64,000 nucleotides of DNA from an uncultured bacterium (GTDB lineage: Bacteria; Bacillota_I; Bacilli_A; RFN20; CAG-826). This document shows, piece after piece, positions 39,018 to 57,066 of this stretch (positions are counted from its first letter, which is position 1; every line of letters begins with the position of its first letter). The stretch is from the NCBI GenBank assembly GCA_949300345.1, contig CASGDR010000001.1:131835-195834 (forward strand), in the 5' to 3' direction. The notes under the pieces are model-generated. The model worked only from the letters and a program-made list of their open reading frames with translations. It was not told the origin of the DNA and ran no database searches. Both the position numbers and the translations under genes were made by a program.

Positions 39018-39677
39018 CTATTGTCTTCTGGTCCACTTATATCTTGAATAGACCTCATTCACAGCTTCGATGTAGCAAATGAATGATGGATGATTATGGT
39101 CGTTCCTACTCAAATAGAGATTCTTTTTGTCAAGATAGCAGCCTCTTACTTCTTCCCATAAGTTATTGTCTTTAAGTGCTGCAGCCTTTTGTGATACTTC
39201 GCTTGAGTCAGGCACTTGATTCCAAAAATAATTGTCAGAGTCAGCAAACCCGGTTTTTTTGTGAATCAAGCGATACCAGTTACCATCATCATCCTTTGCA
39301 ATGATACAAACATCCATACTAAATTGGATGTCGGGATAATCATTAAAATGGCATGGATAAGTAGTTAAAGATGATGTTGAATCTTGGACGTCTCTGAGAT
39401 TTTGTTTTCTCATTACCTTGTTGAGGCACTTTCTTGCAGTTTCCTTTAGATATTGGCAGTCGTTGATATCCTCGCATTTCTGAATCAGAAGGTTGTAATC
39501 AAGATCGATGTCACCATTTTCATTTTGAGTGACCATGTTCCTTCCACCACTTCCAACTAATATAAATTGAGAACTAATGCCTTCCTCTTGTAATAAATGA
39601 ACCAACTCCTGCAAATCCTTAACACAGGAATTTTGAGCCCTTTTAAGAAAATTTTTGTCCTCTACAAAACGATACAT
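39018..39677 (-). CDS. Pol-beta-type nucleotidyltransferase-fold protein (GS...DxDxD), minimal NTase/SMODS-like
   Basis: 219 aa with LVGSGGRNMVTQNENGDIDLD and a downstream acidic MDVCII. The region is AT-rich. It lies 13 nt upstream of the AP2 gene. Confidence 0.55.
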   Translation of the reverse strand: MYRFVEDKNFLKRAQNSCVKDLQELVHLLQEEGISSQFILVGSGGRNMVTQNENGDIDLDYNLLIQKCEDINDCQYLKETARKCLNKVMRKQNLRDVQDSTSSLTTYPCHFNDYPDIQFSMDVCIIAKDDDGNWYRLIHKKTGFADSDNYFWNQVPDSSEVSQKAAALKDNNLWEEVRGCYLDKKNLYLSRNDHNHPSFICYIEAVNEVYSRYKWTRRQ

Positions 39678-39810: not shown

Positions 39811-39836
39811 AAAAAGACCGGGGATTTCACTCCCCA
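39811..39836 (-). terminator. Rho-independent terminator overlapping stop of serine recombinase
   Basis: On the minus strand, GGGGAGTGAAATCCCC is followed by GGTCTTTTTAT. Confidence 0.55.
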
Positions 39837-41407
39837 GCCTTGATGGTGGCCTCATAGCCGCAATAGAATCTGAACGTTATTGATTTGTCCCTATGGACGA
39901 TTGCCTTCTCCAGCGTGAAATTGAATATCGCCTCATCCCAGTCGAGCATTGCCTCGCCTTTTCGGAGCGTCGCAAGGAAGGCTTCGAGGTTCCCGGCTTT
40001 CAGCCTCTTCCCCTCCTTCTCGCCGATGAGTTTCTTGCATTCCTCTTCCTTCCTTTTGTATTCATCCTCGAGCTCTGCGTACTTTCTTCGCCAAACTGCT
40101 TGATCCTGCGGGCTTCTGGTGTTCATCTTCACCAGCAGGTTGAACTCCTTCGACATCTCCTCGAGTTCCTTTTTTAGCCCGCCGATGTCCGCATCGAGCT
40201 TGGAAGTGTCGGTAAGCAACGACATCGCGGCTTGGATGTCATCCATGACCGTCTCCTTGCCCGAAATCATCAGGTTGTAGGCTTTCATGAACCTTGCCTT
40301 TATGTCCTCTTCCTCCAGGTTCGGCGTATGGCATTTGTTCCTGAACTTGTCGTTGCACTGGATGATCTCCTTTTCATGGGGAGTCCCGGAATGCCACTTC
40401 TTCTTTCCGTAGTACCCGCCGCAGTCCTCGCATATCAGCCTGGCCGCAAAAGGGTTCTTGTACGAGTAGGAATAGCTAAGCTCCTTCCTTCTGTGGATTT
40501 CTATCTGCACCAGCTCCCAGTCCTCCTTCGGGATGATGGTCGGATGCGAATCATGAACATAGTATTGAGGGACCTCGCCTTCGTTCTTCTTCGTCCTGTG
40601 CTGGAGGAAGTCGACCACGAAGCTTTTCTGAAGGAGGGCGTCGCCTTTGTATTTCTCGTTCTGGAGTATGGAGAGGGCGGTCGTCTTCGTCCACTTCGTC
40701 TTCCCCTTCGGCGTCAGTATCCCGTCCTTCATCAAGTCGGAGCAGATCTTGCCGATGCTCTCGCCCTTGAGGAAGCGGTAGTAGATCCTCCTAACGGTTT
40801 CCGCCTCCTGCTCGTTTATCCTGATCTCGCCGTTCTCGCCCTTTTCGTACCCGAGGAAGGCTTTGTAAGGCATGCTTACCTTCCCGTCGGCGAATCTCTT
40901 TCTCTGCCCCCAAGTGACGTTTTGGGAGATTGACCTGCTTTCCTCCTGAGCCAAGCTCGACATGATGGTGATGAGGAGCTCGCCCTTGGAGTCGAAGGTG
41001 TTGATGTTCTCCTTCTCGAAATAGCACTCGACGTTGTGCTCCTTGAGCTTCCTTATGTTCACCAAGCTATCGACGGTGTTGCGGGCGAATCTGGATATGG
41101 ACTTGGTGATTATCAAATCGATCTTCCCGCCGAGGGCATCGTCGATCATCCTTTTGAAGCCTTCTCTCCTTTTGGTGTTGGTCCCGCTGATGCCTTCGTC
41201 CGTGTAGACGCCCACGAGTTCCCAATCGGGCCTTCTTTTGATGTAATTGGTGTAATAGTCCACTTGGGCCTCATAGGAGGTCTGCTGCTCCTCTTGGTCT
41301 GTCGAGACGCGGGCGTAGGCGGCAACCTTCCTCTTCCTTAAGCTGCCTTGGGGAAGCCTGGTCAATGGATTTATGGTTGGCTCAATCTTGGTTATCGTTC
41401 TTGCCAT
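39827..41407 (-). CDS. Large serine recombinase (resolvase/recombinase/zinc-ribbon/coiled-coil), CcrB-sized
   Basis: 526 to 536 aa. N-terminal resolvase domain AAYARVSTDQ...Y with a catalytic Ser, a recombinase domain, a Cys zinc ribbon and a C-terminal coiled coil. The ORF extends to 41437. Start placed at MARTITK (41407). Confidence 0.8.
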   Translation of the reverse strand: MARTITKIEPTINPLTRLPQGSLRKRKVAAYARVSTDQEEQQTSYEAQVDYYTNYIKRRPDWELVGVYTDEGISGTNTKRREGFKRMIDDALGGKIDLIITKSISRFARNTVDSLVNIRKLKEHNVECYFEKENINTFDSKGELLITIMSSLAQEESRSISQNVTWGQRKRFADGKVSMPYKAFLGYEKGENGEIRINEQEAETVRRIYYRFLKGESIGKICSDLMKDGILTPKGKTKWTKTTALSILQNEKYKGDALLQKSFVVDFLQHRTKKNEGEVPQYYVHDSHPTIIPKEDWELVQIEIHRRKELSYSYSYKNPFAARLICEDCGGYYGKKKWHSGTPHEKEIIQCNDKFRNKCHTPNLEEEDIKARFMKAYNLMISGKETVMDDIQAAMSLLTDTSKLDADIGGLKKELEEMSKEFNLLVKMNTRSPQDQAVWRRKYAELEDEYKRKEEECKKLIGEKEGKRLKAGNLEAFLATLRKGEAMLDWDEAIFNFTLEKAIVHRDKSITFRFYCGYEATIKAGE

Positions 41408-42692
41408 ATAGCCTTTCCAGCTCCCTTCTTCTGGCATCTTCTTTCATCTCAGGTGTCCACGAATCCTTTCTCGACTTGAATTCGAAGTGCAGCGTCTTGA
41501 TGCTTCCGTCCATGAAGACGAAATCGACGTCCTTGCTTTCGTGGACGACTATCCTGTCTATCTTCTCCTTGAACGCCTTCTCGTCGAACTCCTTTATGCC
41601 CAACGCTTGGTTCGTCAGCTCGTAAAGGGTGTCTTCCCTAAGGGCGAGCGTCTGGCGGCATGCCGACTTCGAGAGGACGCTCATCGTCCCGCACGCCCAG
41701 AAGGTCCTGTATTTCGAATTCTTCCTCACGTAGTTCTTCCCGCATGTGGCGCACTTCAACTTCTTGGTGAAGGGGCTCAGGTTGTTGTTCGGTCCATAGC
41801 GGACCGGCCTTCTTTTCTCCATCAGCTCCTGCGCCCTGAGGAATTCCTCTTTGCCGACTATTGCATCGTGGTCCTCCGCGACCTTGTAAAGTGAGTATTT
41901 CCCAATATTCGCCTTGCAGTGCTCGTTTATGCCGCAAGAATACCTCCCCAGGACCAGCTCCCCTGTATAGGTCGGGTTCCTGAGTATCCATCTAACGGTG
42001 CTCTCCCTCCAAATGGATCCCATGGGCGAGGGGATCCCGTCCCCGTTGAGCCTCCTGGCAATCTTCTGGGTGCCGACGCCCTGTTTGGCGTACTCATCGA
42101 ATATCCTCCTTACTACCTTCGCTTCCTCCTCCTTGATTTCGTATCTTCCGTTCACCACCTTGTATCCGAAGAAATCGTGGAGCCCCCAGACCTTGCCTTC
42201 CTCGAAGAACTTGCCTACTTTCCACCTTACGTTGTTGGACATCGACACGACCTCCTCCTCGGCAAAACCTGCCAATAGGGAAAGCATCAGTTCCCCGTCC
42301 ACGCTCATCGAATGCATGTTCTGCTCCTCGAAGTAGACGTCGACGTTGAGCTTTTTTAGAAGCCTCGTCGTCTCCAAAAGCAGCATGGTGTTCCTCGCGA
42401 ACCTCGATATCGATTTGGTGACGATCATGTCGATTCTGCCCTGCTTGCAGTCCTCGATCATTCGATTGAATTCCGGTCTGTTGGCCTTGGTCCCGCTTAT
42501 CCCCTCGTCGGCGTAGATCCCGGCGAACATCCAGTCGGGGTTGCTTGATATGTAGTCCTGGTAATAGGACACCTGCGCCACAAATGAATGGAGGGTGGCG
42601 TCCTTGCTTACGGAGACCCTGCAATAGGCGGCAACCTTCTTCTTGCTCGGAAGGGTTGGCTTGGCTTTGATCTTCACTATTTGCCTATCCAT
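41382..42692 (-). CDS. Large serine recombinase (CcrA-sized), overlapping the downstream recombinase gene
   Basis: 436 aa with a resolvase N-terminus AAYCRVSVSKD, a recombinase domain and a zinc ribbon CATCGK. Confidence 0.8.
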   Translation of the reverse strand: MDRQIVKIKAKPTLPSKKKVAAYCRVSVSKDATLHSFVAQVSYYQDYISSNPDWMFAGIYADEGISGTKANRPEFNRMIEDCKQGRIDMIVTKSISRFARNTMLLLETTRLLKKLNVDVYFEEQNMHSMSVDGELMLSLLAGFAEEEVVSMSNNVRWKVGKFFEEGKVWGLHDFFGYKVVNGRYEIKEEEAKVVRRIFDEYAKQGVGTQKIARRLNGDGIPSPMGSIWRESTVRWILRNPTYTGELVLGRYSCGINEHCKANIGKYSLYKVAEDHDAIVGKEEFLRAQELMEKRRPVRYGPNNNLSPFTKKLKCATCGKNYVRKNSKYRTFWACGTMSVLSKSACRQTLALREDTLYELTNQALGIKEFDEKAFKEKIDRIVVHESKDVDFVFMDGSIKTLHFEFKSRKDSWTPEMKEDARRRELERLYGKNDNQD

Positions 42693-42732: not shown

Positions 42733-42918
42733 CTAGGTATTCAACCCATATAGGCGATAAACGCTGCCTGTTTTGATATGGTGCCTCTTGGCGATCTCCT
42801 TCTCGGCGACGATGTACTCCCTTTCGTCCAAAAGACCCCTTTTCTGCATGGTTTTCAACACGAAAACGGCGGTGAGGTAGCTTTGGGCGTCAACCTGGTA
42901 TTCCGCCAAATCACGCAT
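42733..42918 (-). CDS. Small hypothetical protein (approximately 62 aa) in recombinase leader
   Basis: Start at the internal Met MRDLAEYQVD. The upstream part of ORF 42733..43161 overlaps the next gene and has an R/S-rich, junk-like composition. Confidence 0.35.
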   Translation of the reverse strand: MRDLAEYQVDAQSYLTAVFVLKTMQKRGLLDEREYIVAEKEIAKRHHIKTGSVYRLYGLNT

Positions 42919-43210
42919 CGCCACCACCGCCTTTTTCCGCCTTGGCCTCCTGCTTTCTCCTTTCGTTCCACCAGGAATATTTGCATCCATGGGAGCAGAA
43001 GACTTGGTTAATGTGCCTCCTGTCGAGGACGAACGGCTTCCCGCATCTTCTGCAGTATCGGACCAGCCCCGCCGTATCCCTGTCCATGACGTTCCTCTTG
43101 CAGAAGGAAGCCACTGTGTTCTTTGAAATCCCCAAAAGGAAGGCGATCCTCTTGTAGCCAAGCCCCGCTTTGCGGTATTCGACGATCTTCCTCTCGTTTT
43201 CTCTTTCCAT
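42911..43210 (-). CDS. Sigma-70 region-4-like HTH protein with C-terminal zinc ribbon
   Basis: About 100 aa with the HTH YKRIAFLLGISKNTVASFCKRN followed by CRRCGKPF...CSHGC. Confidence 0.5.
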   Translation of the reverse strand: MERENERKIVEYRKAGLGYKRIAFLLGISKNTVASFCKRNVMDRDTAGLVRYCRRCGKPFVLDRRHINQVFCSHGCKYSWWNERRKQEAKAEKGGGGDA

Positions 43211-44071: not shown

Positions 44072-45532
44072 ATGATGAGATTCAACCTGGACTTTCTGAC
44101 GGTATTCACCCTGGTAAAGCAATCCCTGACGAACGACTTGTCGGAGAACGAGATTTACAGGCGCCTGATATGCCTCGGCAACGAAAATCTGGACGGAAAG
44201 AACGACCCCCATCGTCACATAACAGGTGAAACGCAGATCAATGGGTCCAGAAACTCGTCCATCATAGGCAAATCTTCGATTGAGGTAATGGCCCGCTCAT
44301 ATGACTCGCTTTTCAGCGATTATATGAGCGTCTCCACGCGGAAGCGGATGGTATCCGTTCTCAAGGAAATACTGAAATCGTGCAACTGGCCCGACCCAGA
44401 ATTGGAAATAGGTGAAGGCAGCGGATTTACGCTCGAATCGGTCATCAACGGGAAGAGCTTTTGCTTCCCCTACCTCCTTGCGGCTTTGGTTAAATTCACG
44501 GTGCCAAGGGAAAACCCGCACAGGAAAGACTTCAAGGAATACCGCGTCACTGTCGTCGACTGCTACAACAGCGCGCCGGATGAGAACCTGGATTTGGTTC
44601 CGATCGACCTTGCGCTCCCCCGCGAAAAGGACACTTCGAGAATCGACGGAGCCGAATTCCGGAGGTTCTTCACGGAGGTGAATTCCGAGAAGTTTCCGGA
44701 GCAGTTCAAAGGCGCGGGCGACGTGAAGATTTTTCGTCTGAACATCAGGAACTCCCGGTTCGACTACGAAGGCCTCTCGGGATTCCTCGAGGAGAACATC
44801 GAGCATTATGTGATGAGCTCGCTCGAGGAAAAGTCCTACTATGACGAGCAGAGGACAAAGCATCTCACGCACGACGCAATAAAGAGGTTCGCGGCCTCCG
44901 CTTCCGGCAAAGACCTCCGCGAAGTTTATTCGCGGCTCATGCTTTACGTCTTCATGGAAGGCGGCCTCGGCGCGCCGAAGATATTCAACGCCGTCGAGAT
45001 AAAGGACAAGAACATTAGGAGCGACGGTGTTTACTACCTGCGAAAAGGGGTTATTTCCGACAAGCCTATGCTCATCCTCGGCGCATCGCAAACCTTCCCG
45101 ACGCTGGATGAGGCCATGGAAAACGGGCTTGCCCAAATCGACGTGATTTCGAGAGAGCAGGACAAGATGCTGTCTTTCATAAACCCCGCGTTCCTACGGA
45201 TGAGATTCGAGCAAGATGATCTCTCCTACATAGTCGACCGTCTCATAAAAGCGGAAGGAATTCTACAGAACGACGCGGCGTTCGGAGTGTTCCTCTCCTA
45301 TTCGCTCGATGAGTCGAACGATGGCAACTTATCCTCTAACGAGTTCAGGCAGAAAGTAGAGGAAAGAATGGAAAGGGACATAGCCGATGCGGTTCCCATG
45401 ATTTACGCGAAGATCAAGGAGCACGGGCTGCAAAACTATGGTTTCTTCGTGTTCGTCCTTCCCCTAACGAACGTGGAGACTGACGCCGAGAAGGTAATAC
45501 GCGGATTCGCCGGAGGAGAAATGAATGGCTAA
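44072..45532 (+). CDS. Unknown 486 aa protein, first gene of helicase/nuclease module (candidate HamA/DUF1837-like, unverified)
   Basis: No signal peptide and no recognised canonical motif. There is a possible restriction-endonuclease-like E...ExK segment, LYVFMEGG...NAVEIKDK. It overlaps the downstream helicase gene by 8 nt. Confidence 0.5.
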   Translation: MMRFNLDFLTVFTLVKQSLTNDLSENEIYRRLICLGNENLDGKNDPHRHITGETQINGSRNSSIIGKSSIEVMARSYDSLFSDYMSVSTRKRMVSVLKEILKSCNWPDPELEIGEGSGFTLESVINGKSFCFPYLLAALVKFTVPRENPHRKDFKEYRVTVVDCYNSAPDENLDLVPIDLALPREKDTSRIDGAEFRRFFTEVNSEKFPEQFKGAGDVKIFRLNIRNSRFDYEGLSGFLEENIEHYVMSSLEEKSYYDEQRTKHLTHDAIKRFAASASGKDLREVYSRLMLYVFMEGGLGAPKIFNAVEIKDKNIRSDGVYYLRKGVISDKPMLILGASQTFPTLDEAMENGLAQIDVISREQDKMLSFINPAFLRMRFEQDDLSYIVDRLIKAEGILQNDAAFGVFLSYSLDESNDGNLSSNEFRQKVEERMERDIADAVPMIYAKIKEHGLQNYGFFVFVLPLTNVETDAEKVIRGFAGGEMNG

Positions 45533-48110
45533 CCGCGTCCAAGAGATTCTTTTCCCTCGGCTAGAAGCAAGCCCCGTACTGAAACTACTTTTCTCTAAGC
45601 TTCTACAGGCCTACACAAGACTTAATTTCGGGATGGCACCGCCATCATTTGCCGAAAAGGAGATTAACCAGCTCATATCGTTCGCAAGCCTGCTCTCCAA
45701 ATCGAACGATTCCGGCCAAAAGGTCATATCCGAGCAAATCGTGGCACTGCTCGGAAAGCTCTACCCCGCCTCGGAAAGCATCAGGAAAGCCAAGGCGGAA
45801 GTGCTTTCCTCATGCACAAACTACGTCGGGATGAAGGTGGAAAAAATGGAGGGAAGGAGCGACGACGTATTCCAGGAAATCAGCTCGGAAATCCAAATGG
45901 AATCGCTGAAGATTCCGTTTCAGGACGGCAAGTTCTTCATAGACGACCAAAAGGAGATATTCGACAGCTTCGAGAAATACCAATTCGTCAGCTACTCCGC
46001 CCCCACGTCGCTTGGGAAATCGTTCGTAATGAGGATCTACCTCAAATACAAGGTTGCCAGCGGATACCGAGGAAACTTCGCGATAATCGTCCCAACAAAG
46101 GCCCTCATCAACGAGATGAGGAACAGCGTCGTCGAAGAGGACCTGAAGGACCTTCTCCGGAAGATGCACTACAGGGAGGTTTCGTCGGTCAACGAGGTAT
46201 TCGTCACCGAAGACAAGGAATCGAAGTTCATCTTCATAGTGACACCGGAGAGGCTCCACTATCTCCTCAACAGCACCGACATAGCCATCGACTGCTGCTT
46301 CGTCGACGAGTCATACAAGATATCGGAGCCCGACTCAAGGAGCCTCTACTACTATCAGGCAATAAACCAGCTCCTTGCTCGGAACCCTAAGACGAAAATA
46401 TTCTTCTCGTCCCCGAACATACCGAACCCCGAAGTCTATCTCGAAACGATAAAGGCGCCCGGGACAAGATACAGGAAGGCGACCGGGTACTCGCCCGTCA
46501 GCCAGATCAAGTACCTCATCTCGCTGAAGGAAAAAGACCGGCCAATCAAGGTGTTCAACGACCTCACCCAGGTGTTGGAGGACACGGGCATGACGAACCC
46601 GTCCACGAACATCAACGACATAATATCCACGCTGAAGACGAAGGGCGGGAACATCGTCTATTGCTCAGGGAAGGACAAGACCGTTGAGCTTGCCCTGCAA
46701 TATGCCAATTTCCTGCCCGCCTTCCAGCCCAGCACGCCTGAGGAAAGGGAAAATCAGGAAAAGCTTGACGCCCTGGCTAAGAGCATCGAGCAGGACATCC
46801 ACGAGGATTACTACCTCGCCGCTCTCATGCGAAAGGGCGTCGCCTACCACGTCGGCTACCTGCCGAATTCGCTCAGGAACAGCATAGAGAAGGCGTTCAA
46901 GACCGGGCTCATAAAGACCATCTTCTGCACGAGCACCCTAATGGAGGGGGTCAACCTCCCCGCGGACAACCTCTTCGTGACGAGCACGAGGAATGGCTCA
47001 GAGGCCATGTCTCCGACTGCGTTCAAAAACCTCCTCGGTAGGATTGGAAGGATCAATTACAGTCTTTTCGGGAACGTCTACCTCTTAGTCATCCCTCGCT
47101 ATGCCAATGCCGAAAAGTACGAGGAGCTGCTCACGTCAAAGGTCGAACCACAAAAACTGTCGCTCGATAAGATAGTCACGGACGGGTCGATCGTCGACCA
47201 CATCAGCGACGATGCATATTTCTTCGGACGCGAGGACGAGGACCAGACGAAAAGGATAGCGGCCAACATCTACATAAACGACGTTAAGAATGGCACGGAA
47301 TCACTCATCAGGGAAAGGGTCGACTCAAAAAGCGAGGAGACATTGGTTGACAAGGCTATAAGGAAAATCGAATTGCTGGAAACATCGGAAAGCATAGACA
47401 TCTCACCGGACCAGCACGTGAGCCTCAAAAAGTACATAGAAAACGGCGGCCATTACCCCGATCCCGTGAACGGCCGGTTTGAACACAGCGACGTCTGGCG
47501 CTTCCTCAACGAGCTTTCGGACATTTATAAATGGGACAAGTACGAGTTCGAGACACTTAAGAACGGCAATTCGAACTCGTATTTCGCGACCGTCCTCTCC
47601 CAGTGGATGAGCGGACTCAAAGTAAAGGAAATCGTCGACCGATCGATAGAGAGCAAGAAAAAGAACCCATATGACGCGATCTTCGACAGAAAGCTCCACA
47701 TGAAGGTCGATTACATCGGCACGGTCGAGCAAAACAACATAATCATCAACGACACGCTCAGGACGATTGAGCAAACAATCCTTTTCACCATAGCGAACTA
47801 CTTCAGAGAGTTTTCGAGGGAATACAAGAACTTCCACCACCTGGAATATTTCGACAACGACTGGTACGAGTACGTAGAGTTTGGAACCAGCAACCCAATA
47901 ACCATCGCACTTCAAAGGAACGGATACATCCGCGAAACGGCCAAATGGATACACGAAAACGATTCAAAGTACCATCTGATCGATCAAACCCGCCGATGCA
48001 AATTCGCTCCATTCACCTTAGACCTCGACAACCTTTTGAAATGCGGCGAGCAGAAAGTAATTGAAGAGACGCTCGTCATCAAACTAAATGTCCCAGAGCT
48101 TTTTAGATAG
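45525..48110 (+). CDS. SF2 (Ski2/DExH-like) helicase, candidate HamB-like
   Basis: 861 aa with motif I SAPTSLGKSF, motif II CFVDESYK (DESY in place of DExH), a motif VI-like LLGRIGRIN, and FCTSTLMEGVNLP. Confidence 0.65.
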   Translation: MANRVQEILFPRLEASPVLKLLFSKLLQAYTRLNFGMAPPSFAEKEINQLISFASLLSKSNDSGQKVISEQIVALLGKLYPASESIRKAKAEVLSSCTNYVGMKVEKMEGRSDDVFQEISSEIQMESLKIPFQDGKFFIDDQKEIFDSFEKYQFVSYSAPTSLGKSFVMRIYLKYKVASGYRGNFAIIVPTKALINEMRNSVVEEDLKDLLRKMHYREVSSVNEVFVTEDKESKFIFIVTPERLHYLLNSTDIAIDCCFVDESYKISEPDSRSLYYYQAINQLLARNPKTKIFFSSPNIPNPEVYLETIKAPGTRYRKATGYSPVSQIKYLISLKEKDRPIKVFNDLTQVLEDTGMTNPSTNINDIISTLKTKGGNIVYCSGKDKTVELALQYANFLPAFQPSTPEERENQEKLDALAKSIEQDIHEDYYLAALMRKGVAYHVGYLPNSLRNSIEKAFKTGLIKTIFCTSTLMEGVNLPADNLFVTSTRNGSEAMSPTAFKNLLGRIGRINYSLFGNVYLLVIPRYANAEKYEELLTSKVEPQKLSLDKIVTDGSIVDHISDDAYFFGREDEDQTKRIAANIYINDVKNGTESLIRERVDSKSEETLVDKAIRKIELLETSESIDISPDQHVSLKKYIENGGHYPDPVNGRFEHSDVWRFLNELSDIYKWDKYEFETLKNGNSNSYFATVLSQWMSGLKVKEIVDRSIESKKKNPYDAIFDRKLHMKVDYIGTVEQNNIIINDTLRTIEQTILFTIANYFREFSREYKNFHHLEYFDNDWYEYVEFGTSNPITIALQRNGYIRETAKWIHENDSKYHLIDQTRRCKFAPFTLDLDNLLKCGEQKVIEETLVIKLNVPELFR

Positions 48111-48119
48111 GAGGATACC

Positions 48120-50063
48120 GTGGAAACTCCCGATAAAATCATTCAATCATGCGATCCTTTGGATCTTCTTTCCAAACTTTCATATCTCAAGTGGCTAATG
48201 GCGACAGACGCTTTTTCGGATAGAGACAAGCAGCCATTCACCTTTTTGGAAGTCAAATACGCACTGCATTACGTCATGTCCTATCTGCTGTCCCATAAGC
48301 TTGGCGAAGCAGCTAATCAATCCATACAGTATGAAACAATTTCCACCTTAATCTGCGCGCTTGCCCAAGAAGAAATAAATAGAAAGTTTAACGAGGAAGC
48401 GACACTGGATAAGCTGTCAGGAAAACTTCAATACACTCAGAAAGACTCAGGCGAATTGCTTCCTTTATTCTACTCCGTTCCATTTCGCCACATTTTAGAA
48501 GGGGAAGATGACATAATCTCAGCAAAATACGGATGCAATTCGAATGACATACTCAATGATTTCGCGACATTGGTGGGCGCTTTCAATAACTCAGTAAGAG
48601 CCAAAGGAATGAAAGTTTTCGATTTCGTCAATAGGTTCAACGACTACTGCAACTCCTCCGCCTTGGCAATCCAAAAAAACATGAAAAGTTACGGCTTGTT
48701 CAAAACAATGTCAGGCCGAATAGGCCAATTCGCAGAAGACGAATTTGATCACGGTTACCCAATTTCGCTAATTAAGAAATTCAGGAAACTCTTCATCAGA
48801 GTTGACGATATTTTGTACTGCCCAGATTTGGAGCTTGTCCCAAATCTAATCGTCCGCTGCGTAGAAAGAGCGATGCAGCAAGACAAAAGGCAAAATCCAG
48901 AATGGGATCTGCGGATGAAGGAAAGAACAGAGAAACTCGTGAATGGCGCCCTTTCGCACTATTTCAAAGGAGGGACATACCATGCGAACTCAGAGTTTGG
49001 CCAGAAAGAAAAAGGGGAAAGCGATGGCCTCTTTGAATTCTTGGGACATCTTTTCATAATTGAAGTTAAAGCCGGAAAGCTTAGTCCCGATCCTGTCGAG
49101 TCAAATAACACCACTGTTCATCAATCCTACAAGGCAACGATAGGAAAAGGGACCAAGCAATGTGACAAGGCAGAAAATCATATTCTCGAACATGGCGGCA
49201 AATTCAAAGAAGACGGCCACGAATTCCGAGTGAATTACGATATTGAGCACATCATCAAACTCGTCATTTCATTTGAAGACCTTTCCGCTGTTTTGCCGGA
49301 TGAGAATATTCAAACCCCTAATCACACAATTCTCATGACTTATTTTGATTTGCTTATAGTGCTTGACTATATAAACGAACCAATTCTTTCCCTCAAATAT
49401 TTCTTGGAGAGAAGAAAGGCATTGGAGCATTGCTGGGATATTTCAGACGAAATGATTTATCTGGGTTTATTTAGCGACGACATGAATTTTACGTATCGCT
49501 TAAATTCCCAACCCTTTTCTTCTTCGGCAGACAACTCCACAAATTTCGTCCTTGATCCGCATTCGTTCACGCACGAAATAGAGATGCACTACACGCAACC
49601 AGAACGATATCCCAAACCAAAAATACATTTGAGTGAATTTCAAAGGCTGGTATTGGCGGCACTCAATGGAAAGGATAGCATCTCGTCTAAATGGGCAATG
49701 CCACTGCTTATGCTTCCTACTCAATTCGGAGATAAATTGATGTTGCTTTTCCAAAGGAATAATTGTCACAGAGGTTTTGCCCCACAAGTAGGCATGGCTG
49801 GGTTCGCAAACGGAAAACATATCGCCGTTATGGTGTCAAAAAAGCACATAGGAGAACAAAGATATATCTATTATGCCATTGCGAATAGGTTCTTCAGAAA
49901 GCATGGAGAAGCGAAAGAAATCGTAAGCCTGATTGTTGACGGCCAGCGTTCCCACCTCGAGGAAATTGACCATTCGCGAAAGGAATTAAACTATCAAAAG
50001 ACCCTAGATGCGCTTCAACAAATAGAAGCCAAATTTGGGTTTAGACAAAAGATCTACAAATAA
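48120..50063 (+). CDS. Large PD-(D/E)xK nuclease-fold protein of unknown family (AT-rich)
   Basis: 647 aa. A central motif ESDGLFEFLGHLFIIEVKAGK gives D...E-V-K. It starts 9 nt after the helicase stop. Its GC is markedly lower than that of its neighbours. Confidence 0.55.
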   Translation: METPDKIIQSCDPLDLLSKLSYLKWLMATDAFSDRDKQPFTFLEVKYALHYVMSYLLSHKLGEAANQSIQYETISTLICALAQEEINRKFNEEATLDKLSGKLQYTQKDSGELLPLFYSVPFRHILEGEDDIISAKYGCNSNDILNDFATLVGAFNNSVRAKGMKVFDFVNRFNDYCNSSALAIQKNMKSYGLFKTMSGRIGQFAEDEFDHGYPISLIKKFRKLFIRVDDILYCPDLELVPNLIVRCVERAMQQDKRQNPEWDLRMKERTEKLVNGALSHYFKGGTYHANSEFGQKEKGESDGLFEFLGHLFIIEVKAGKLSPDPVESNNTTVHQSYKATIGKGTKQCDKAENHILEHGGKFKEDGHEFRVNYDIEHIIKLVISFEDLSAVLPDENIQTPNHTILMTYFDLLIVLDYINEPILSLKYFLERRKALEHCWDISDEMIYLGLFSDDMNFTYRLNSQPFSSSADNSTNFVLDPHSFTHEIEMHYTQPERYPKPKIHLSEFQRLVLAALNGKDSISSKWAMPLLMLPTQFGDKLMLLFQRNNCHRGFAPQVGMAGFANGKHIAVMVSKKHIGEQRYIYYAIANRFFRKHGEAKEIVSLIVDGQRSHLEEIDHSRKELNYQKTLDALQQIEAKFGFRQKIYK

Positions 50064-50111: not shown

Positions 50112-52166
50112 TCAATCATTCAACTGCTTTTCAAACGACTGCTTGATGATGTCCATGACGTCGTCCAACTGGCCCAAGTTATCCAGAATAACTTCGACGT
50201 TTCCATTCCCCCACCTTCCAACGCCGGTAACGTCTTTGCATATTCCCTTTGGATCGTTCACCTCGGAGAAATCCATGTTGATGGCGATTCTCAGCCTGCT
50301 TTCCTGAAAGACGATGTCCGTGAAATTCGTGTCCAGCTTATAGGCAACGTAGAGTTTTTTGAACTCCCTTCGCACCGAGGAAGACAAGTTCATAATCCTG
50401 GTGTCAAGTTTCTCGAAAAACATCTTAGTCAGTAAATTCGGCCTGTAGGAATCGAGACTGTACTTCGGCTCGTTTCCCTTATCCTGCACGTAGGGAGCGA
50501 GTTGCTCCGATGCAAGGTTTGGATATTGCCATATTTCAAGAGCCTTGGCTGCCAAAAGTTTGGCCCTTTCCTCGATCTTGTCTCCGTTCCAAGTGCTCTG
50601 AAGAACAATGTACTCATTAAGCCTACAAGCCGTCTGGCGGAATCCGCCTTTCATGACCATTTTCTCCATGAAAGGCTTGTCGCTCATCTCTGAGTTGTAT
50701 CCGGTTAGGGTGAGATTGCCGATGGTATGTAGATATTTCGAATGGGCTGCTTTCCAATCGCTTCCTAGCATGGCCTTCCAGTCGTCGTTTAGCCGATCGT
50801 TTTGGGGCATGATATGCTCGATCGTCATCGAAAGCACGTCCACCGGGGACTTGTTGTCGTAGTTTTCAAGGCGGTCAAGGATGTAGTTCCTGTTCCGCAT
50901 GTTGTAGATATCCCTGCTAACAAATGCCTTTTCGAATTCCTCGTCGTTAGGGAACTCCTTATACCCCTCACGGGTGAGGAAGAACGCCTTCAAGGAGACA
51001 AGGTAATCGTCCTTTTTTATTTCGTTTTCCAAGGTGGCGAATGTCTTGTTGAGCGAGTTTGTGGCAAGATCGCATATGCTTCTTCTCAGCACGTAGCTTA
51101 TACATAGACGGATGATTTCGCCCGTATCGGAATTGCTTACAAGGCCGGAAGCGTTGTCACGGAGGACTGCCATTAGAAATGGGTTGGCAACGCCCATGTT
51201 TAGTTCCTTAACCTCACGGAATAACTCGGCCAAATTCTGATCCTTGCTTCTGGCAAAGATGATGTCTGTGTATATCTTTCCCATCCGGTAGATGTCATTG
51301 CAAAGCTCTTCGCTGCTTGCGAAAGGACAGTTGATCCGCCACGATTTGAACTCGTCATACACGTTCGCCTTGTTCGGGATTCTGTGGTTATACATCGTCA
51401 AGTAGTCCCTGAAGAACGAATCCATGTTGGAGTCCTGGCTTTCGTGCCCGAAGAGTTCCTCGAATGGGCGCCACACCTTGGAATAAAGGCTTTCCTGAGC
51501 TTCCTTCGTCATCCCCATGAGGACGAAGTTTCTAATCAAGTCAGACTGCGAGAGAGCCTTGCCAGTGGAATTGAGACTTTCAAAGATGGCTTGCGGATCA
51601 TCACGGCCCCTTTCGAGCGTGATGATGACTATTTGCAGCTTCCCCGTTGCCTCAAACAGAGAATCGGTAGAGATTTCGTTTTTTGCAATCTTGCTTTTAA
51701 AGAACTCGTAGGCATTGAGCAGCTTCGACTTGGTTCCTTCTGCTATGGGCTTAGATTCGACGAGGGAAACGAGGACGTCCTTGTCCTCCTCCGTCAGCAG
51801 TAGCTTGTACTTCTGCTCGCCGCTTTCATACTGGTTCATGAGAAACGATGTGTTGATCTTCTGCTTTTCGAGATCGCCGTCTATGGAATCTCGGAGCGCG
51901 ATAAGGACGAGGGCCAAGGTCGTGAGGCGCTGCTGCCCGTCGATGACCATGTATTTTTGGACACCAGTTGGAGCCGTTTTCTCCGCAATGCAGACTATTG
52001 AACCCAAGAAGTGACTGTCCCTGTTTTCCTTCTGCATTTCCACGATATCGTCCCAAAGGCGGCCGTACTGGGATTCATCCCAGCTGTATAGTCTCTGGTA
52101 AATTGGGACTATGTACTGTTTCAGCCCGTTCAGCAATTCGAATATGTTCCCCTTGTTAGCGTCCAT
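50112..52166 (-). CDS. DUF262 (ParB/GmrS-like) + DUF1524 (HNH/His-Me, GmrD-like) fusion protein; GmrSD-family defense/type IV restriction-like
   Basis: 684 aa with N-terminal IYQRLYSW...IDGQQRLTTL and C-terminal TIEHIMPQN. It overlaps the hsdR stop by 11 nt. Confidence 0.75.
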   Translation of the reverse strand: MDANKGNIFELLNGLKQYIVPIYQRLYSWDESQYGRLWDDIVEMQKENRDSHFLGSIVCIAEKTAPTGVQKYMVIDGQQRLTTLALVLIALRDSIDGDLEKQKINTSFLMNQYESGEQKYKLLLTEEDKDVLVSLVESKPIAEGTKSKLLNAYEFFKSKIAKNEISTDSLFEATGKLQIVIITLERGRDDPQAIFESLNSTGKALSQSDLIRNFVLMGMTKEAQESLYSKVWRPFEELFGHESQDSNMDSFFRDYLTMYNHRIPNKANVYDEFKSWRINCPFASSEELCNDIYRMGKIYTDIIFARSKDQNLAELFREVKELNMGVANPFLMAVLRDNASGLVSNSDTGEIIRLCISYVLRRSICDLATNSLNKTFATLENEIKKDDYLVSLKAFFLTREGYKEFPNDEEFEKAFVSRDIYNMRNRNYILDRLENYDNKSPVDVLSMTIEHIMPQNDRLNDDWKAMLGSDWKAAHSKYLHTIGNLTLTGYNSEMSDKPFMEKMVMKGGFRQTACRLNEYIVLQSTWNGDKIEERAKLLAAKALEIWQYPNLASEQLAPYVQDKGNEPKYSLDSYRPNLLTKMFFEKLDTRIMNLSSSVRREFKKLYVAYKLDTNFTDIVFQESRLRIAINMDFSEVNDPKGICKDVTGVGRWGNGNVEVILDNLGQLDDVMDIIKQSFEKQLND

Positions 52167-55100
52167 CGCTTTCCCCTCCCATTACGTTGTCCGTCCAAAG
52201 TTCGCACTGCTCGAGAACGGTCTGGATGGCCTTCTCGCGCTCCTCTCCTTCGGGCGGATACTTGTATTTCTTCAAGAGCCTTTTCACTAACATTTTCATG
52301 TGCGAGCGGGCACCCTCGCGCTTCTGCCAGTCTATCGTCTCGTTCTTCCTGAGGAGCTCGGTCAGTTCCTTGGTCATCGCCACCAGTTCGTCGTTCGTGT
52401 AGAAGTCCATGACCGCGGCTGGCTGCGTAAGCGCGTCGTAGAAAGCCTTCTCTTCGGTAGTAAGCCCAAGTTCCTTGCCCTGCTCCGTCGCTTTGCGAAT
52501 CTGCTCGGCCAAATCGAGAAGCTCGTGCATGACCTCCTCGTTCGTCAACATCCCGTTCAGGTACTTGGTGACGATTCTCTGGATGATCTCGCTGAATTTA
52601 ACGGACTGGACCAGGTTGGTCTTCCTGAATATCCTAATCTGCTCGCTGATGAGCTTCTTCAAAAGCTCGACCGCGATGTTCTTCTCCTTCATCTTCGATA
52701 TCTCAGCTAGGAAGTCGGGATTGAATAGCGAAAAGCTCACTTCCCTGTCCTCGAAGAGGTTGATTACACCTTCGGAGATCACGCTTTGTTTGAGCAGCTC
52801 GCTGACCTTGTCGTTGACCTCTGACAGGCTGTATTTCTTGGGCCCGCCGGCGCTTTCGAGCCTGTTGAGGAGGACCCTCACGGATTCGAAGAAAGAGGCT
52901 TCGTGCCTTTCCTCTGCGGTCGCGAGGGACGAGCAAAGAGAAAGAGCTTGGTGGCAAAGGAGGCCCTGTTTGAGGAAATCCTTCTTGGTCTCGGCAAGCT
53001 CCGGCGCGACCATGAAGTTGACGGCCCCTGTGATCGTCTGGGCCTTTACGAGGTCGTCTCCGCTGTTGAAGGCCGCCCAGTCGAATCCGTGGAACAGGTC
53101 CTTGCATACCTGGAGCTTCTCCTGGAACTTCGGATAGGCTTCCTTTGAGACGTCCATGTCGCCGAAGTTCTTCTGGTCGCGGACCGTGTATTCCCTCATG
53201 GCTTGCTTTAGGGCGTTCGCTATCCCGATGTAGTCGACGACTAGGCCGCCCTCCTTGTCCTCGAAAACGCGGTTCACCCTCGCGATTGCCTGCATGAGGT
53301 TGTGGCCGACCATCGGCTTGTAGACGTACATGGTCGCAAGGGACGGTATGTCGAAGCCGGTCAGCCACATGTCGACGACGATGGCAATCTTGAGCGGCGA
53401 CGAGTTGTCCTTGAACCTCGTCGCGAGTTCCTGTTTGCGCGCCTTGTTGCCGATGATGTCCCTCCACCATTCAGGGTCTCGGTTGTCGCTCGTCATCACC
53501 ACCGCCACCTTCTCGGTCCAAGTCGGCCTCTGCCGGAGGATTTCCTTGTAGATCTCCATTGCAATCGGCCTTGAATAGGCGACGATCATCGCCTTGCCAG
53601 TAAGCAGGTGCTCGCGGTTGTTCTCGTAGTGGCCGATGATGTCGGTCACCAACGAGTTTATGGTCTTCGGGTTCCCCAAGACTGCCTCAAGCTGGCCGAG
53701 CTTCCGCTTGCTGGCTTCGATGACGGAAGGATCGGAATCCTCCTCCAGCTTATCGTAGAGGTCGTCAATCTTGCCTATGGTCTCCTCGTCGAGCTTCAGC
53801 TTGATGACGCGGCTTTCGTAATAGACCGGCCTTGTGGCCCCGTCGGCCACGGACTGTGTCATGTCGTAGATGTCGATGTAGTCGCCGAATATCTCCTTGG
53901 TGTTGTGGTCCTTGCTGAACACCGGGGTCCCGGTGAAACCGATGTAGGTGGCGTTCGGGAGGGCGTCCCTGACCTTCCTGGCGTAGCCTATGGTCGTTAC
54001 GGCGACATCGTTGCCGTTCTCATCTTTCTTTATTCGCACTTTTTCCGTGAGGCCGTATTGGCTTCGGTGCGCCTCGTCGGACATGACGACGATGTTCTTC
54101 CTCGTCGAAAGGGGCTTGGCTGACTCGGTGAACTTCTCGATCGTGGTGAAGAAGATGCCGTTGGCCTTCCTTTCGTCGAGTAGCTTGACGAGGTGCTCGC
54201 GCGACTCGGCCTGGATGGGCTTTTGCCTCAGGAACTCGGAGCACTTGGCGAACTGCGAGAAAAGCTGATCGTCAAGGTCGTTTCTGTCGGTAAGGACAAC
54301 GATCGTAGGACTATCTAGGTGCTGCTGGAGTAGATGTGCGTAAAAGACCATCGAAAGGGACTTGCCGCTCCCCTGAGTGTGCCAGAAGACGCCGCCCTTC
54401 CCGTCGGTAGCCACCGCCCTTTCCGTCGACTTGATGGCCTTGTTGACGGCGAAGTACTGGTGGTAGGCCGCCATGATCTTGAACGTCTTTATCCCCTCGT
54501 TGGAGAAGCAGATGAAGTTCCGGATGATGTCGAGGAGGCGCTCCTTCGGGAATATCCCCTCGAAGAAAACGTCGAAGGTGGCGACGCAATCGGTGGTGTA
54601 CGTACCATCCTTGCTCTTCCATTCCATGAACCTCTCCTCGTCGGAGGTGATGGTCCCGGCCTTCGAAAGAAGGAGGTCCGACATGACGCATAAGGCATTG
54701 TAGATGAACATCGACGGGATTTCGTGGATGTAGTTCCTTATCTGAGAGTATGCCTCCGAAGCATTCGTCTCCTCCCTAGAAGGCGACTTCAGTTCCATGA
54801 GCACCACCGGGAGGCCGTTTAGGAAGATAAGGATGTCCGGGCGCTTGTTGCTCCTTTCCACAAAGGTCCACTGGTTCGCCACGACGAACGAATTCCTCTC
54901 CGGGTGATCATAGTCGACCAAGTAGCACATGTCGGACTTGGACTCCCCGTTCTCACGGTAACGGACCGGAAGGCCGTTCTGCAGATAGTCCATGAATAGC
55001 TTGTTTTTTTGGATGAGGTCGGCGTTTTCAAAGTGATGGAGCTTGTTCAAGGCGTCTTGGATGGCCTCTTCTTTGAGCGACGGATTTATCCTCCGCAGGG

Positions 55101-55236: not shown

Positions 55237-55253
55237 AGCAGCCCTCCTTTCAT

Positions 55254-55281
55254 CCGTTTAAACGATAATTTATCGAAGCAG
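55254..55281 (+). repeat. hsdS recombination repeat R1 (forward; encodes NDNLSKQ)
   Basis: ccgtttaaacgataatttatcgaagcag. It is a 22 bp perfect inverted match to 55971..55992 and a 22 bp direct match to 57546..57567. Confidence 0.8.
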
Positions 55282-55344
55282 ATATCTACACTTATCGCTC
55301 ATGAATTCCCATATACAGCCGATGAATTCATAAGTGGTTGGCAT

Positions 55345-55968: not shown

Positions 55969-55992
55969 GACGATAAATTATCGTTTAAACGG
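55969..55992 (-). repeat. hsdS recombination repeat R2 (inverted copy)
   Basis: gacgataaattatcgtttaaacgg is the reverse complement of R1. Confidence 0.8.
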
Positions 55993-56066
55993 ACGTAGCT
56001 CCCCCGCGGCGGGAGGCCGAGAGAAACAGCCGCGGAAAGCGCTTCTCCAGTAATAAGGAGGAGAAC

Positions 56067-57053: not shown

Positions 57054-57066
57054 GGAGGAAAAAGAC

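What the first reader, a model, noticed from the sequence alone, without database searches (positions are those of the whole stretch)
44072..50063. Tightly coupled three-gene module: unknown 486 aa protein, SF2 helicase, large PD-(D/E)xK nuclease. Candidate novel or variant anti-phage system (Hachiman-like plus extra nuclease)
Three same-strand genes sit inside a defense island, between the serine-recombinase module and a GmrSD-like/type I R-M cluster. The first two overlap by 8 nt and the third begins 9 nt after the second, so they are translationally coupled.
- Gene 2 carries SF2 helicase motifs I, II and VI, with an unusual DESY in place of DExH.
- Gene 3 has a textbook D-x12-E-V-K restriction-endonuclease-fold core flanked by about 300 aa of unrecognised sequence on each side.
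- Gene 1 has no canonical motif, only a possible E...EIK segment.
- A small upstream protein followed by a DExH helicase is the Hachiman (HamA/HamB) architecture. However, HamA is usually much smaller, and a third nuclease gene is not part of classical Hachiman. This may therefore be a Hachiman variant (type II-like) or an undescribed helicase-nuclease system.
Basis: partly seen in the sequence, partly recalled or inferred. Interest (0 to 1): 0.85.

Follow-up and report, generated by a model that had tools for sequence, protein, structure and literature searches.

The report
Hachiman operon with add-on nuclease cassette
The first two genes are an ordinary Hachiman anti-phage system of the subtype whose own nuclease is dead, and the third is an uncharacterised nuclease gene that repeatedly sits right behind the helicase gene but is an optional, swappable cassette, not a fixed third subunit.

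Summary
Three co-directional ORFs lie at 44072-45532, 45525-48110 and 48120-50063, with an 8-nt overlap and a 9-nt spacer. The cited motifs are present.

Genes 1 and 2 are bona fide Hachiman type I (PADLOC HamA1 6.7e-54, HamB1 1.8e-248). They belong to the known long "fusion-HamA" class, whose DUF1837 domain has lost the D-GExK catalytic residues (GASQ here).

Gene 3 follows hamB at -1 to 11 nt in three HamAB lineages, down to 26% HamA identity. It is nevertheless facultative:
- hamAB that is 96% identical exists without it.
- An unrelated 245-aa ORF replaces it precisely between homologous flanks.
- It occurs alone, sometimes with a hamB 3' remnant upstream.
- Its GC3 and dS are decoupled from those of hamAB.

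Verdict: a known system plus a novel modular nuclease cassette. The cassette is most likely an autonomous defence nuclease co-transcribed with hamAB. Less likely, it is a trans effector for the nuclease-dead Hachiman. This is not type II Hachiman.

The parts
44072..45532 (+). hamA, long fusion type (486 aa): all-helical N-terminal domain of unknown fold (about residues 1-180) plus a C-terminal DUF1837 domain (237-465)
   Evidence: Pfam PF08878 1.6e-17. PADLOC HamA1 PDLC00162 6.7e-54 and the 490-position model PDLC00164 6.4e-53. The profile's best PDB hit is AbpA 9wh1. In the AF2 model the N-domain has pLDDT 80-95 and is all-alpha, with no Foldseek match.
45023..45091 (+). Degenerate nuclease motif of the HamA DUF1837 domain: D318 is retained, but canonical G-E-x-K reads G337-A338-S339-Q340
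   Evidence: hhalign against a canonical short HamA: 'aDGVya..LfwGESKvf' versus 'SDGVYY..LILGASQTF'. The same loss is seen in all 9 long HamAs of the clade. It matches the published loss of D-GEXK in HamA fusions (PMC11914072; bioRxiv 10.1101/2025.07.28.667249).
45525..48110 (+). hamB, a Ski2-like SF2 helicase (861 aa). Motif I is at nt 45999-46022, motif II (DESY) at 46305-46316 and motif VI at 47037-47051. The C-terminus reads ...LNVPELFR
   Evidence: PADLOC HamB1 PDLC00190 1.8e-248, covering 3-860 of 861. Pfam DEAD and Helicase_C. Motifs. The C-terminal tail is shared with HamBs that lack gene 3.
48109..48115 (+). Shine-Dalgarno sequence AGGAGGA of gene 3, overlapping the hamB stop codon. 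This is also the cassette's left boundary: L007 homology to the window starts at 48100
   Evidence: Sequence. blastn of L007 against the window begins at 48100.
48120..50063 (+). Gene 3 (647 aa, GTG start): three-part protein with an N-terminal helical region (about 1-280), a PD-(D/E)xK nuclease core (about 283-430) and a C-terminal alpha/beta domain (about 505-640). It is a facultative cassette downstream of hamB
49017..49070 (+). Catalytic motif of gene 3: E300-S-D302 ... E315-V-K317
   Evidence: Invariant in alignment A1 (19 sequences) and in the 20-38%-identical subfamily A3. The residues lie on the beta-strands 300-307 and 310-317 of the model.
39827..42692 (-). Context: pair of large serine recombinases (536 and 436 aa) that travels with hamAB-gene 3 in two lineages
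   Evidence: Pfam Resolvase, Recombinase and Zn_ribbon_recom. They are 75% and 67% aa identical to the pair in L009/L018.
50112..52166 (-). Context: convergent GmrSD-family type IV restriction gene with a C-terminal DUF5655, joined to the type I R-M operon. It is the right-hand neighbour of gene 3 and stays with gene 3 in L007, where hamAB is absent
   Evidence: Pfam GmrSD_N, GmrSD_C and DUF5655. PADLOC Orf5 2e-168. L007 context.

Best explanation
The locus is a canonical two-gene Hachiman type I system, hamA-hamB, of the N-terminal-fusion class. A separate modular nuclease gene (gene 3) has been inserted between the hamB stop codon and the operon terminator, so it is co-transcribed with hamAB.

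HamB is the Ski2-like sensor helicase. In characterised Hachiman systems it loads on 3' ssDNA or damaged DNA and, through ATP hydrolysis, activates its partner (established knowledge, PMC12278908). Here the HamA DUF1837 domain has lost the catalytic Glu and Lys, so it most likely acts as a scaffold. Whatever effector function HamA retains would lie in its helical N-domain (inferred).

Gene 3 encodes a large three-part protein with an intact PD-(D/E)xK, NERD-like active site. I infer that it is a self-contained nuclease-based defence protein: its own flanking domains would do the sensing or regulation and its core would cut nucleic acid. On this reading it rides on the hamAB promoter and gives a second, mechanistically independent layer of immunity. 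Its recurrent placement behind this Hachiman clade would reflect synergy and cassette exchange using the conserved hamB 3' end, not obligate subunit assembly.

Shown: the gene identities, the dead HamA motif, the intact nuclease motif and fold, the facultative and swappable nature of gene 3, and its separate history. Inferred: that gene 3 is a defence gene, that it acts autonomously, its substrate, and co-transcription.
For: - hamAB identity.
- Separability:
  - L020 hamAB is 96% nt identical to L012, homology ends exactly at the hamB stop, and an inverted-repeat sequence that looks like a terminator follows.
  - L021, L022 and L028-31 are long-HamA Hachiman loci without gene 3.
  - L026/27 have the same homologous flanks as L012, but gene 3 is precisely replaced by an unrelated 245-aa ORF.
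  - L007 carries gene 3 (88% aa, 95% nt) with GmrSD-HsdR but no hamAB, and has its own AT-rich upstream region.
  - L005 and the 30-34%-identical relative in L034 are standalone.
  - Plasmid relatives annotated NERD/SEC-C are single genes with no Hachiman nearby.
- Intact standalone copies that derive from trios keep all catalytic residues, and dN/dS is about 0.15-0.2.
- Separate history: GC3 is 0.70/0.72 versus 0.46 in the window and 0.69/0.76 versus 0.42 in L016. For L009 versus L018, dS is 0.08 and 0.05 for hamA and hamB but 0.23 for gene 3. Identities are incongruent: gene 3 is about 50% identical among all three lineages, while HamB is 70% or 39%.
- The loss of HamA catalytic residues is clade-wide and independent of gene 3 presence.
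- Literature precedents: facultative add-ons to Hachiman in which only HamAB is needed for defence (PezAT, abiJ; PMC13064477), and a standalone NERD-domain defence nuclease (ZwsA; bioRxiv 10.64898/2026.04.06.716636).
Against: - In the close family (42% identity or more), 10 of the 12 contexts examined have hamB or a remnant of its 3' end directly upstream. Many of these are related by descent; they represent three HamAB lineages.
- The junction is always tight (-1 to +11 nt) in those three lineages, which are as diverged as 26% (HamA) and 39% (HamB). That is more than expected for a random defence-island neighbour and suggests functional coupling.
- The partner HamA is nuclease-dead and its N-domain shows no recognisable catalytic fold, so a trans nuclease would make mechanistic sense, with HamM as precedent.
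- No experiment shows that gene 3 defends against anything.
- The sample is small: 18 clusters, all from metagenomes.
Confidence: 0.5

Rival explanations
1. Three-component Hachiman variant, essentially the first reader's idea sharpened. In this nuclease-dead fusion-HamA clade, gene 3 is the trans-acting effector nuclease. It is held inactive until HamB senses damaged or phage DNA. The slot after hamB is an interchangeable effector position, occupied by gene 3, by the 245-aa ORF or by others.
For: - Gene 3 starts -1 to +11 nt after hamB in three HamAB lineages.
- hamB remnants lie upstream of 'standalone' copies, so those copies descend from trios.
- All partner HamAs lack GExK while gene 3 keeps an intact D...ExK.
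- The HamA N-domain is helical with no nuclease or protease fold.
- An unrelated ORF sits in exactly the same slot in L026.
- Published precedent: a separately encoded nuclease, HamM, serves a catalytically dead fusion HamA (bioRxiv 10.1101/2025.07.28.667249). HamC of type II also sits directly after hamB.
Against: - Equally dead HamA occurs with no gene in the slot. L020 is 96% identical in hamAB, and L021 and L022 also lack it, so the clade does not need gene 3.
- Gene 3 persists intact without hamAB in L001, L003, L005, L007 and L013.
- Wider relatives are standalone.
- GC3, dS and identity patterns show independent histories.
- A 647-aa multidomain protein looks more like a self-sufficient sensor-effector than a bare effector.
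Confidence: 0.27
2. Gene 3 belongs functionally to the right-hand restriction block (GmrSD plus type I R-M) or is a solitary restriction-type endonuclease. Its adjacency to hamB would then be incidental island packing.
For: - In L007/L008 gene 3 stays with GmrSD-HsdR at 95% nt identity while hamAB is absent.
- A diverged gene 3 (45%) is again next to a convergent GmrSD (33% identical) in L005.
- The nuclease core resembles type IIS and type II restriction enzymes most closely.
- In other loci the downstream neighbours of gene 3 are always R-M systems.
Against: - The orientation is convergent, so gene 3 is not in the same operon as GmrSD.
- The downstream R-M neighbours differ in type from locus to locus (HaeIII, HpaII, Bsp6I, type IIG, type III), whereas the upstream hamB is the constant.
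- No cognate methyltransferase is consistently paired with gene 3.
Confidence: 0.1
3. Gene 3 is not an immune gene. It would be a mobile-element nuclease, for example in element maintenance, recombination, exclusion or addiction, carried at the edge of serine-recombinase or prophage-like elements.
For: - The trio sits next to a conserved serine-recombinase pair or next to phage-like replication modules.
- Superfamily relatives lie on plasmids among IS elements.
Against: - There is no match in 50,697 phage records or in IMG/VR.
- Gene 3 is always embedded among defence genes.
- It is retained after loss of the neighbouring element genes (L003, among housekeeping genes).
Confidence: 0.08

Closest known systems
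Hachiman type I with N-terminal-fusion HamA (types I-B, I-C and I-D of PMC11914072; AbpAB is the characterised I-B example)
   Same: - hamA (DUF1837) overlaps hamB, which is a Ski2-like helicase matching a HamB profile end to end.
- HamA carries an extra N-terminal domain.
- The DUF1837 domain has lost the (D/E)xK residues.
- The best PDB sequence match of the HamA profile is AbpA.
   Different: - The N-terminal domain is not Cap4 and not a peptidase. It is an all-helical domain with no Pfam or PDB match, the 'X' category.
- HamB motif II is DESY instead of DExH.
- A third nuclease gene follows hamB.
Hachiman type II (HamA-HamB-HamC; HamC = DUF3223/DCL)
   Same: A third gene lies immediately downstream of hamB in the same operon. 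The Bartonella plasmid example L025 has DCL starting 1 nt after hamB.
   Different: - Gene 3 has no DUF3223/DCL or PADLOC HamC match and is 647 aa against about 246 aa.
- The HamA and HamB here match the type I models best.
- The one type II HamA sampled here keeps GESK, while this HamA does not.
HamMAB (MBL-fold nuclease plus trypsin-HamA fusion plus HamB; bioRxiv 10.1101/2025.07.28.667249)
   Same: A nuclease-dead fusion HamA sits beside a separately encoded nuclease gene in the operon. The accessory gene was acquired recurrently and independently.
   Different: - There the nuclease is MBL-fold, lies upstream and is activated by proteolysis.
- Here it is PD-(D/E)xK and lies downstream, HamA has no protease domain, and dependence on HamAB has not been shown.
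Extended Hachiman III-B with facultative PezAT or abiJ (PMC13064477)
   Same: One Hachiman subclade is found either alone or with extra linked genes. In the tested case, only HamAB was needed for defence.
   Different: The add-on here is a large nuclease, not a toxin-antitoxin pair or AbiJ. It sits in a precise cassette slot after hamB.
NERD-domain (PF08378) nucleases, including the standalone defence nuclease ZwsA and large 'NERD domain-containing / SEC-C metal-binding' proteins on plasmids
   Same: - The E...D-x12-ExK active-site pattern and the PD-(D/E)xK fold.
- The architecture is a large protein with the nuclease in the middle.
- Distant relatives (23-31% identity) are annotated NERD/SEC-C and are single genes.
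   Different: - Gene 3 itself does not reach the Pfam NERD threshold and lacks the SEC-C tail.
- ZwsA has VHS-DUF647-NERD-S4 domains and cleaves RNA.

Membership tests
Hachiman (HamAB core) | HamA carries a DUF1837 domain | tested here: met
   PF08878 at 64.6 bits against a cut-off of 25, residues 237-465. Ten PADLOC HamA models match, the best at 6.7e-54.
Hachiman (HamAB core) | HamB is a Ski2-like SF2 helicase matching HamB profiles over its full length, with Walker A and B motifs | tested here: met
   PDLC00190 1.8e-248, covering 3-860 of 861. GKS, DESY and GRIGR motifs are present. The best NCBIfam matches are Hel308-type helicases, far below the equivalog cut-offs.
Hachiman (HamAB core) | hamA lies directly upstream of hamB in one operon | tested here: met
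   8-nt overlap at 45525-45532. The same arrangement is seen in all related loci.
Hachiman type I-A (minimal, catalytically active HamA) | D-GExK catalytic motif in the DUF1837 domain | tested here: not met
   GASQ replaces GESK (E to A338, K to Q340) by hhalign against a canonical HamA. The loss is clade-wide.
Hachiman type I-B (AbpAB) | N-terminal Cap4-type PD-(D/E)xK nuclease domain fused to HamA | tested here: not met
   Residues 1-233 have no Pfam hit. In the AF2 model the N-domain is all-alpha at pLDDT 80-95. There is no Foldseek hit.
Hachiman type II | A third gene, HamC, with a DUF3223/DCL domain | tested here: not met
   Gene 3 has no Pfam, PADLOC or NCBIfam hit at E<=0.1, apart from a spurious DUF2764 match.
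HamMAB (trypsin-MBL Hachiman) | [quoted passage not shown] | tested here: not met
   No MBL or trypsin domain is present in HamA, and upstream lies non-coding sequence followed by opposite-strand ORFs. Compare the true examples L023 and L024.
Hachiman (any type) | Confers anti-phage defence that depends on the HamB ATPase | not testable with these tools
   This needs plaque assays.
PD-(D/E)xK nuclease superfamily (gene 3) | Restriction-endonuclease-like alpha/beta core with conserved D...(D/E)xK on adjacent strands | tested here: met
NERD domain family PF08378 (gene 3) | Score above the Pfam gathering threshold of 22.1 bits | tested here: inconclusive
   Gene 3 itself gives no hit at E<=0.1. 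Seven of ten distant relatives score 17.7-22.3 bits at the homologous position. NCBI annotates a 24%-identical plasmid relative as 'NERD domain-containing protein'.
Obligate three-gene system (HamA-HamB-gene 3) | The three genes are co-conserved: each is rarely found without the others | tested here: not met
   hamAB occurs without gene 3 in L020, L021, L022, L026/27 and L028-31. Gene 3 occurs without hamAB in L001/2, L003/4, L005, L007/8 and L013/14.

The most novel reading that the evidence does not exclude
Fusion-type Hachiman systems with a nuclease-dead HamA use an interchangeable 'effector slot' immediately after hamB. Gene 3, founder of an undescribed large PD-(D/E)xK family, and the unrelated 245-aa ORF would be alternative trans effectors that HamB licenses on sensing damaged DNA. 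This would answer how the 'X'-type (I-D-like) Hachiman systems kill, and it would define a new third Hachiman component.
Probability: 0.25. Interest if true: 0.75.

Novelty: new variant of a known kind. Interest (0 to 1): 0.5.

Why it matters
Hachiman is found in more than 5% of prokaryotic genomes (PMC12278908). How its fusion subtypes with a catalytically dead HamA and an unidentified N-domain execute defence is still open (PMC11914072 and PMC12278908 both call it enigmatic or speculative).

This locus offers a concrete, testable candidate. A rare, unannotated nuclease family sits directly after hamB in three deeply diverged lineages of such systems.

Even if the nuclease acts alone, it is a candidate new single-gene defence family. 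Its wider superfamily has about 470 representatives at 50% clustering and is currently annotated only as NERD or SEC-C proteins. The locus also gives a clean natural example of cassette exchange at a defined operon boundary, with precise replacement, loss and allelic swapping at the hamB stop codon.

Tried and rejected
- **Sequence-family searches for gene 3.** Pfam, PADLOC, NCBIfam, PHROGs and PDB (single sequence and profile) gave nothing usable.
- **Wider genome scans for gene 3.** Pattern scans of 185k GTDB species representatives, of IMG/VR and of phage GenBank found no relatives. These scans are pattern-limited, so absence is not proven.
- **DNA identity search.** Related loci come from uncultured Bacilli/Bacillales MAGs.
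- **Hypothesis that the HamB C-terminal 'NVPELF' tail is specific to gene 3-linked HamBs.** Rejected: HamBs without gene 3 have it too.
- **Hypothesis that loss of HamA catalytic residues correlates with presence of gene 3.** Rejected: the loss is clade-wide.
- **Hypothesis that the 245-aa alternative cassette is a gene 3 relative.** Rejected: hhalign probability 0.3%.
- **HamA structure.** Only the N-domain was confidently modelled (overall pLDDT 54.6), and Foldseek gave no match with E<0.3.
- **Promoter and terminator scans.** No signal exceeded shuffled controls.


Full report
**1. Observation**

Genes 1 and 2 overlap by 8 nt. The gene 3 start codon lies 9 nt after the gene 2 TAG stop, and an AGGAGGA Shine-Dalgarno sequence overlaps that stop. 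A consensus scan finds no promoter or terminator at the junction and no excess of such signals overall.

The quoted motifs are real. In gene 2, motif I is APTSLGKS, motif II is DESY and motif VI is GRIGR. In gene 3 the motif is D302-x12-E315-V-K317.

The surroundings are as described. Housekeeping genes (infB, nusA, DegV, SpoU) run up to about 38.3 kb. Then come two large serine recombinases, the three genes, a convergent GmrSD-family gene, and a type I R-M operon with an integrase-associated hsdS.

**2. Genes 1 and 2 are Hachiman type I**

Gene 1 matches Pfam HamA/DUF1837 above threshold (64.6 bits against 25) over residues 237-465. It also matches ten PADLOC HamA models, including a 490-position model, so a HamA of this length is already catalogued. 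Gene 2 matches PADLOC HamB1 PDLC00190 from residue 3 to 860 at 1.8e-248. Its NCBIfam hits, to Hel308-type and ligase-associated DEXH helicases, are hundreds of bits below the equivalog cut-offs, so on this evidence it is not a housekeeping helicase.

HamAs with an added N-terminal domain form types I-B, I-C and I-D, and their DUF1837 domains lack the PD-(D/E)xK residues (PMC11914072). A second study states that virtually all HamA fusions lack the D-GEXK motif (bioRxiv 10.1101/2025.07.28.667249).

I tested this directly. A profile of the long HamAs aligned to a canonical short HamA from a Bartonella type II locus gives "aDGVya...LfwGESKvf" against "SDGVYY...LILGASQTF" (hhalign E=4.7e-4). The catalytic Glu and Lys are therefore A338 and Q340 here. 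All nine long HamAs of this clade show equivalent losses: GTSS, GTSN, GSSN, GASN, GSGK, GCAQ and GTSH. The profile's only PDB sequence match is AbpA (9wh1), the type I-B HamA with an inactive DUF1837 domain.

The N-terminal domain (about residues 1-180) is confidently predicted as all-alpha (pLDDT 80-95). It has no Pfam or Foldseek match. It is therefore neither a Cap4 nuclease nor a protease, and it falls in the "X" category.

**3. Gene 3 is a genuine but unannotated nuclease**

It has no match in Pfam, PADLOC v2, NCBIfam, PHROGs or PDB sequences. Only 18 clusters of close homologues (42-91% identity) exist among 5.8 billion proteins. All are about 650 aa and none carries a name. In their alignment G299-E300-S301-D302 and E315-x-K317 are invariant. 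The same four acidic and basic residues are invariant in a more distant subfamily.

An exhaustive profile search finds a wider superfamily, with 473 representatives at E<=1e-3. Many are 750-820 aa. Of ten sampled, five carry a C-terminal SEC-C zinc motif, and seven score at or just below the Pfam NERD threshold at the position of the nuclease core. None matches a PADLOC model over the shared region.

**4. Is it a three-gene system? Evidence for linkage**

Gene 3 homologues follow a long hamA plus hamB at -1 to +11 nt in several loci:
- L006, the window's own lineage;
- L009/10/11, L012, L018/19 and L015 (truncated copy), a low-GC lineage;
- L016, a third lineage.

Between the window and L016, HamA is 26% and HamB 39% identical, so the association spans deep Hachiman divergence. 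The left and right flanks also differ between loci. On the left are serine recombinases, phage-like replication genes or small ORFs. On the right are HaeIII, HpaII, Bsp6I, type IIG or GmrSD/type I systems.

The apparently standalone copies in L001/2, L003/4 and L013/14 all retain 25-36 codons of the hamB 3' end immediately upstream of gene 3. They therefore descend from trios.

**5. Evidence against obligate linkage**

(a) Searching from the HamA side gives long-HamA Hachiman operons with nothing in the slot. In L020, hamAB is 96% nt identical to L012, homology stops exactly at the hamB stop, and an inverted-repeat sequence that looks like a terminator follows. L021 and L022 are further examples.

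(b) L026/27 have flanks homologous to L012 on both sides (73-78% nt identity), but gene 3 is replaced, boundary to boundary, by an unrelated 245-aa ORF. In L028-31, different genes follow after a 185-nt gap.

(c) L007/8 carry gene 3 at 95% nt identity to the window, together with the same GmrSD-HsdR block. Homology begins at window position 48100, at the hamB stop and gene 3 RBS. Upstream lies an unrelated gene of undetermined family and an AT-rich intergenic region.

(d) L005 (45% identical) has non-coding sequence upstream. The 30-34%-identical relative in L034 and the NERD/SEC-C relatives on plasmids are single genes with no Hachiman nearby.

(e) Composition and divergence are decoupled:
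- GC3 drops from 0.70/0.72 (hamA/hamB) to 0.46 (gene 3) in the window, and from 0.69/0.76 to 0.42 in L016.
- Between L009 and L018, dS is 0.08 and 0.05 for hamA and hamB but 0.23 for gene 3. Between the window and L006 the order is reversed.
- Gene 3 is about 50% identical among all three lineages, whereas HamB is 70% or 39%.

(f) The dead-HamA state is found with and without gene 3, so gene 3 is not a specific compensation for it.

Gene 3 is under purifying selection throughout (dN/dS 0.15-0.27), and the standalone copies keep every invariant residue.

**6. Interpretation**

The data fit a complete hamAB operon with a hot slot between the hamB stop and the terminator. Discrete cassettes are gained, lost, swapped or allelically replaced in that slot, and gene 3 is the commonest occupant among the loci sampled.

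My preferred reading (confidence about 0.5) is that gene 3 is a self-sufficient nuclease-type defence protein, co-transcribed with and probably synergising with Hachiman. It would be analogous to the facultative PezAT and abiJ add-ons of another Hachiman subclade, where only HamAB was required for defence (PMC13064477), and to the standalone NERD nuclease ZwsA (bioRxiv 10.64898/2026.04.06.716636).

The main rival (about 0.27) is that gene 3 is a trans effector for the nuclease-dead Hachiman. HamM provides a precedent, being a separately encoded nuclease that serves a dead fusion HamA. This rival is favoured by the marked hamB-adjacency of the close family. It is disfavoured by the loci that have no cassette and by the standalone copies.

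Two minor rivals remain: that gene 3 belongs with the GmrSD/R-M block, or that it is a mobile-element nuclease with no role in defence.

**7. Comparison with known systems, and novelty**

The locus passes every test for the Hachiman core. It fails the defining features of type I-A (active D-GExK), type I-B (Cap4 domain), type II (DUF3223 HamC) and HamMAB (MBL nuclease plus trypsin).

None of the Hachiman papers I consulted describes a PD-(D/E)xK or NERD-like third gene.

So the core is already known. The cassette is a new protein family within a known fold, and the combination is a new variant of a known kind, not a new system class. Interest is moderate. The locus gives a testable handle on how "X"-type Hachiman systems work, a candidate new single-gene defence family, and a tidy example of cassette exchange. 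The evidence argues against the more exciting obligate three-component reading.

Noticed in passing
window 55009-58131 (integrase 56067-57053, hsdS 57067-58131); L006 13339-14426: The type I R-M operon contains a tyrosine recombinase next to hsdS. The corresponding segment of the 90%-identical locus L006 aligns to the window in inverted orientation (77% identity). This suggests an invertible, phase-variable hsdS shufflon.
   Followed up: partly
window 50112-52166 (-): The GmrSD-family gene carries an extra C-terminal DUF5655 and overlaps hsdR by 11 nt, so a type IV enzyme is embedded in a type I R-M operon (PADLOC Orf5/HEC-06). A diverged gene 3 (45%) is again next to a convergent GmrSD (33% identical) in L005.
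   Followed up: partly
L001 9907-9981, L003 9891-9998, L013 3971-4048: Standalone gene 3 copies retain 25-36 in-frame codons of the hamB 3' end just upstream, with at least two different breakpoints. Either hamAB was deleted repeatedly, or this stretch is kept because it carries expression signals for gene 3.
   Followed up: partly
L026 12042-12779 (also L027 7846-8583): An unrelated 245-aa ORF with no Pfam or PADLOC match occupies exactly the gene 3 slot, 12 nt after hamB, between flanks homologous to those of L012. Its function is unknown.
   Followed up: partly
L028 12197-14166 (also L029-L031): In another long-HamA Hachiman locus, hamB is followed after a 185-nt gap by 467-aa and 189-aa ORFs with no family match. 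The 189-aa ORF looks like it has a lipoprotein-type signal sequence.
   Followed up: no
window 39827-42692 (-) and 42733-43161 (-): The serine-recombinase pair is 75% and 67% aa identical to the pair left of the trio in L009/L018, and the 142-aa ORF is 40-52% identical. The block recombinase-recombinase-small ORFs-hamA-hamB-gene 3 therefore appears to move as one mobile-element module. The recombinases are more conserved than HamA or gene 3.
   Followed up: partly
window 39018-39677 (-): A 219-aa ORF with markedly low GC (0.37; GC3 0.37) and a weak PADLOC hit to an oligonucleotide cyclase (9e-5). It lies between the housekeeping genes and the recombinases.
   Followed up: no
window 46305-46316 (HamB residues 261-264): Helicase motif II is DESY in the window and low-GC lineages, but the classical DEAH in L016. 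This substitution of the motif II histidine is not described in the Hachiman papers I read.
   Followed up: partly
L015 9956-10546: The gene 3 copy after hamB is truncated to 196 aa, and no remainder was found in the other frames. This looks like natural decay of the cassette while hamAB stays intact.
   Followed up: partly
L023 (Vibrio plasmid) and L024 (B. cereus plasmid): While looking for canonical HamAs I found two MBL-hydrolase plus long-HamA plus HamB loci, the published HamMAB variant. Their DUF1837 motifs are also degenerate: GDGK in L024 and none in L023.
   Followed up: no
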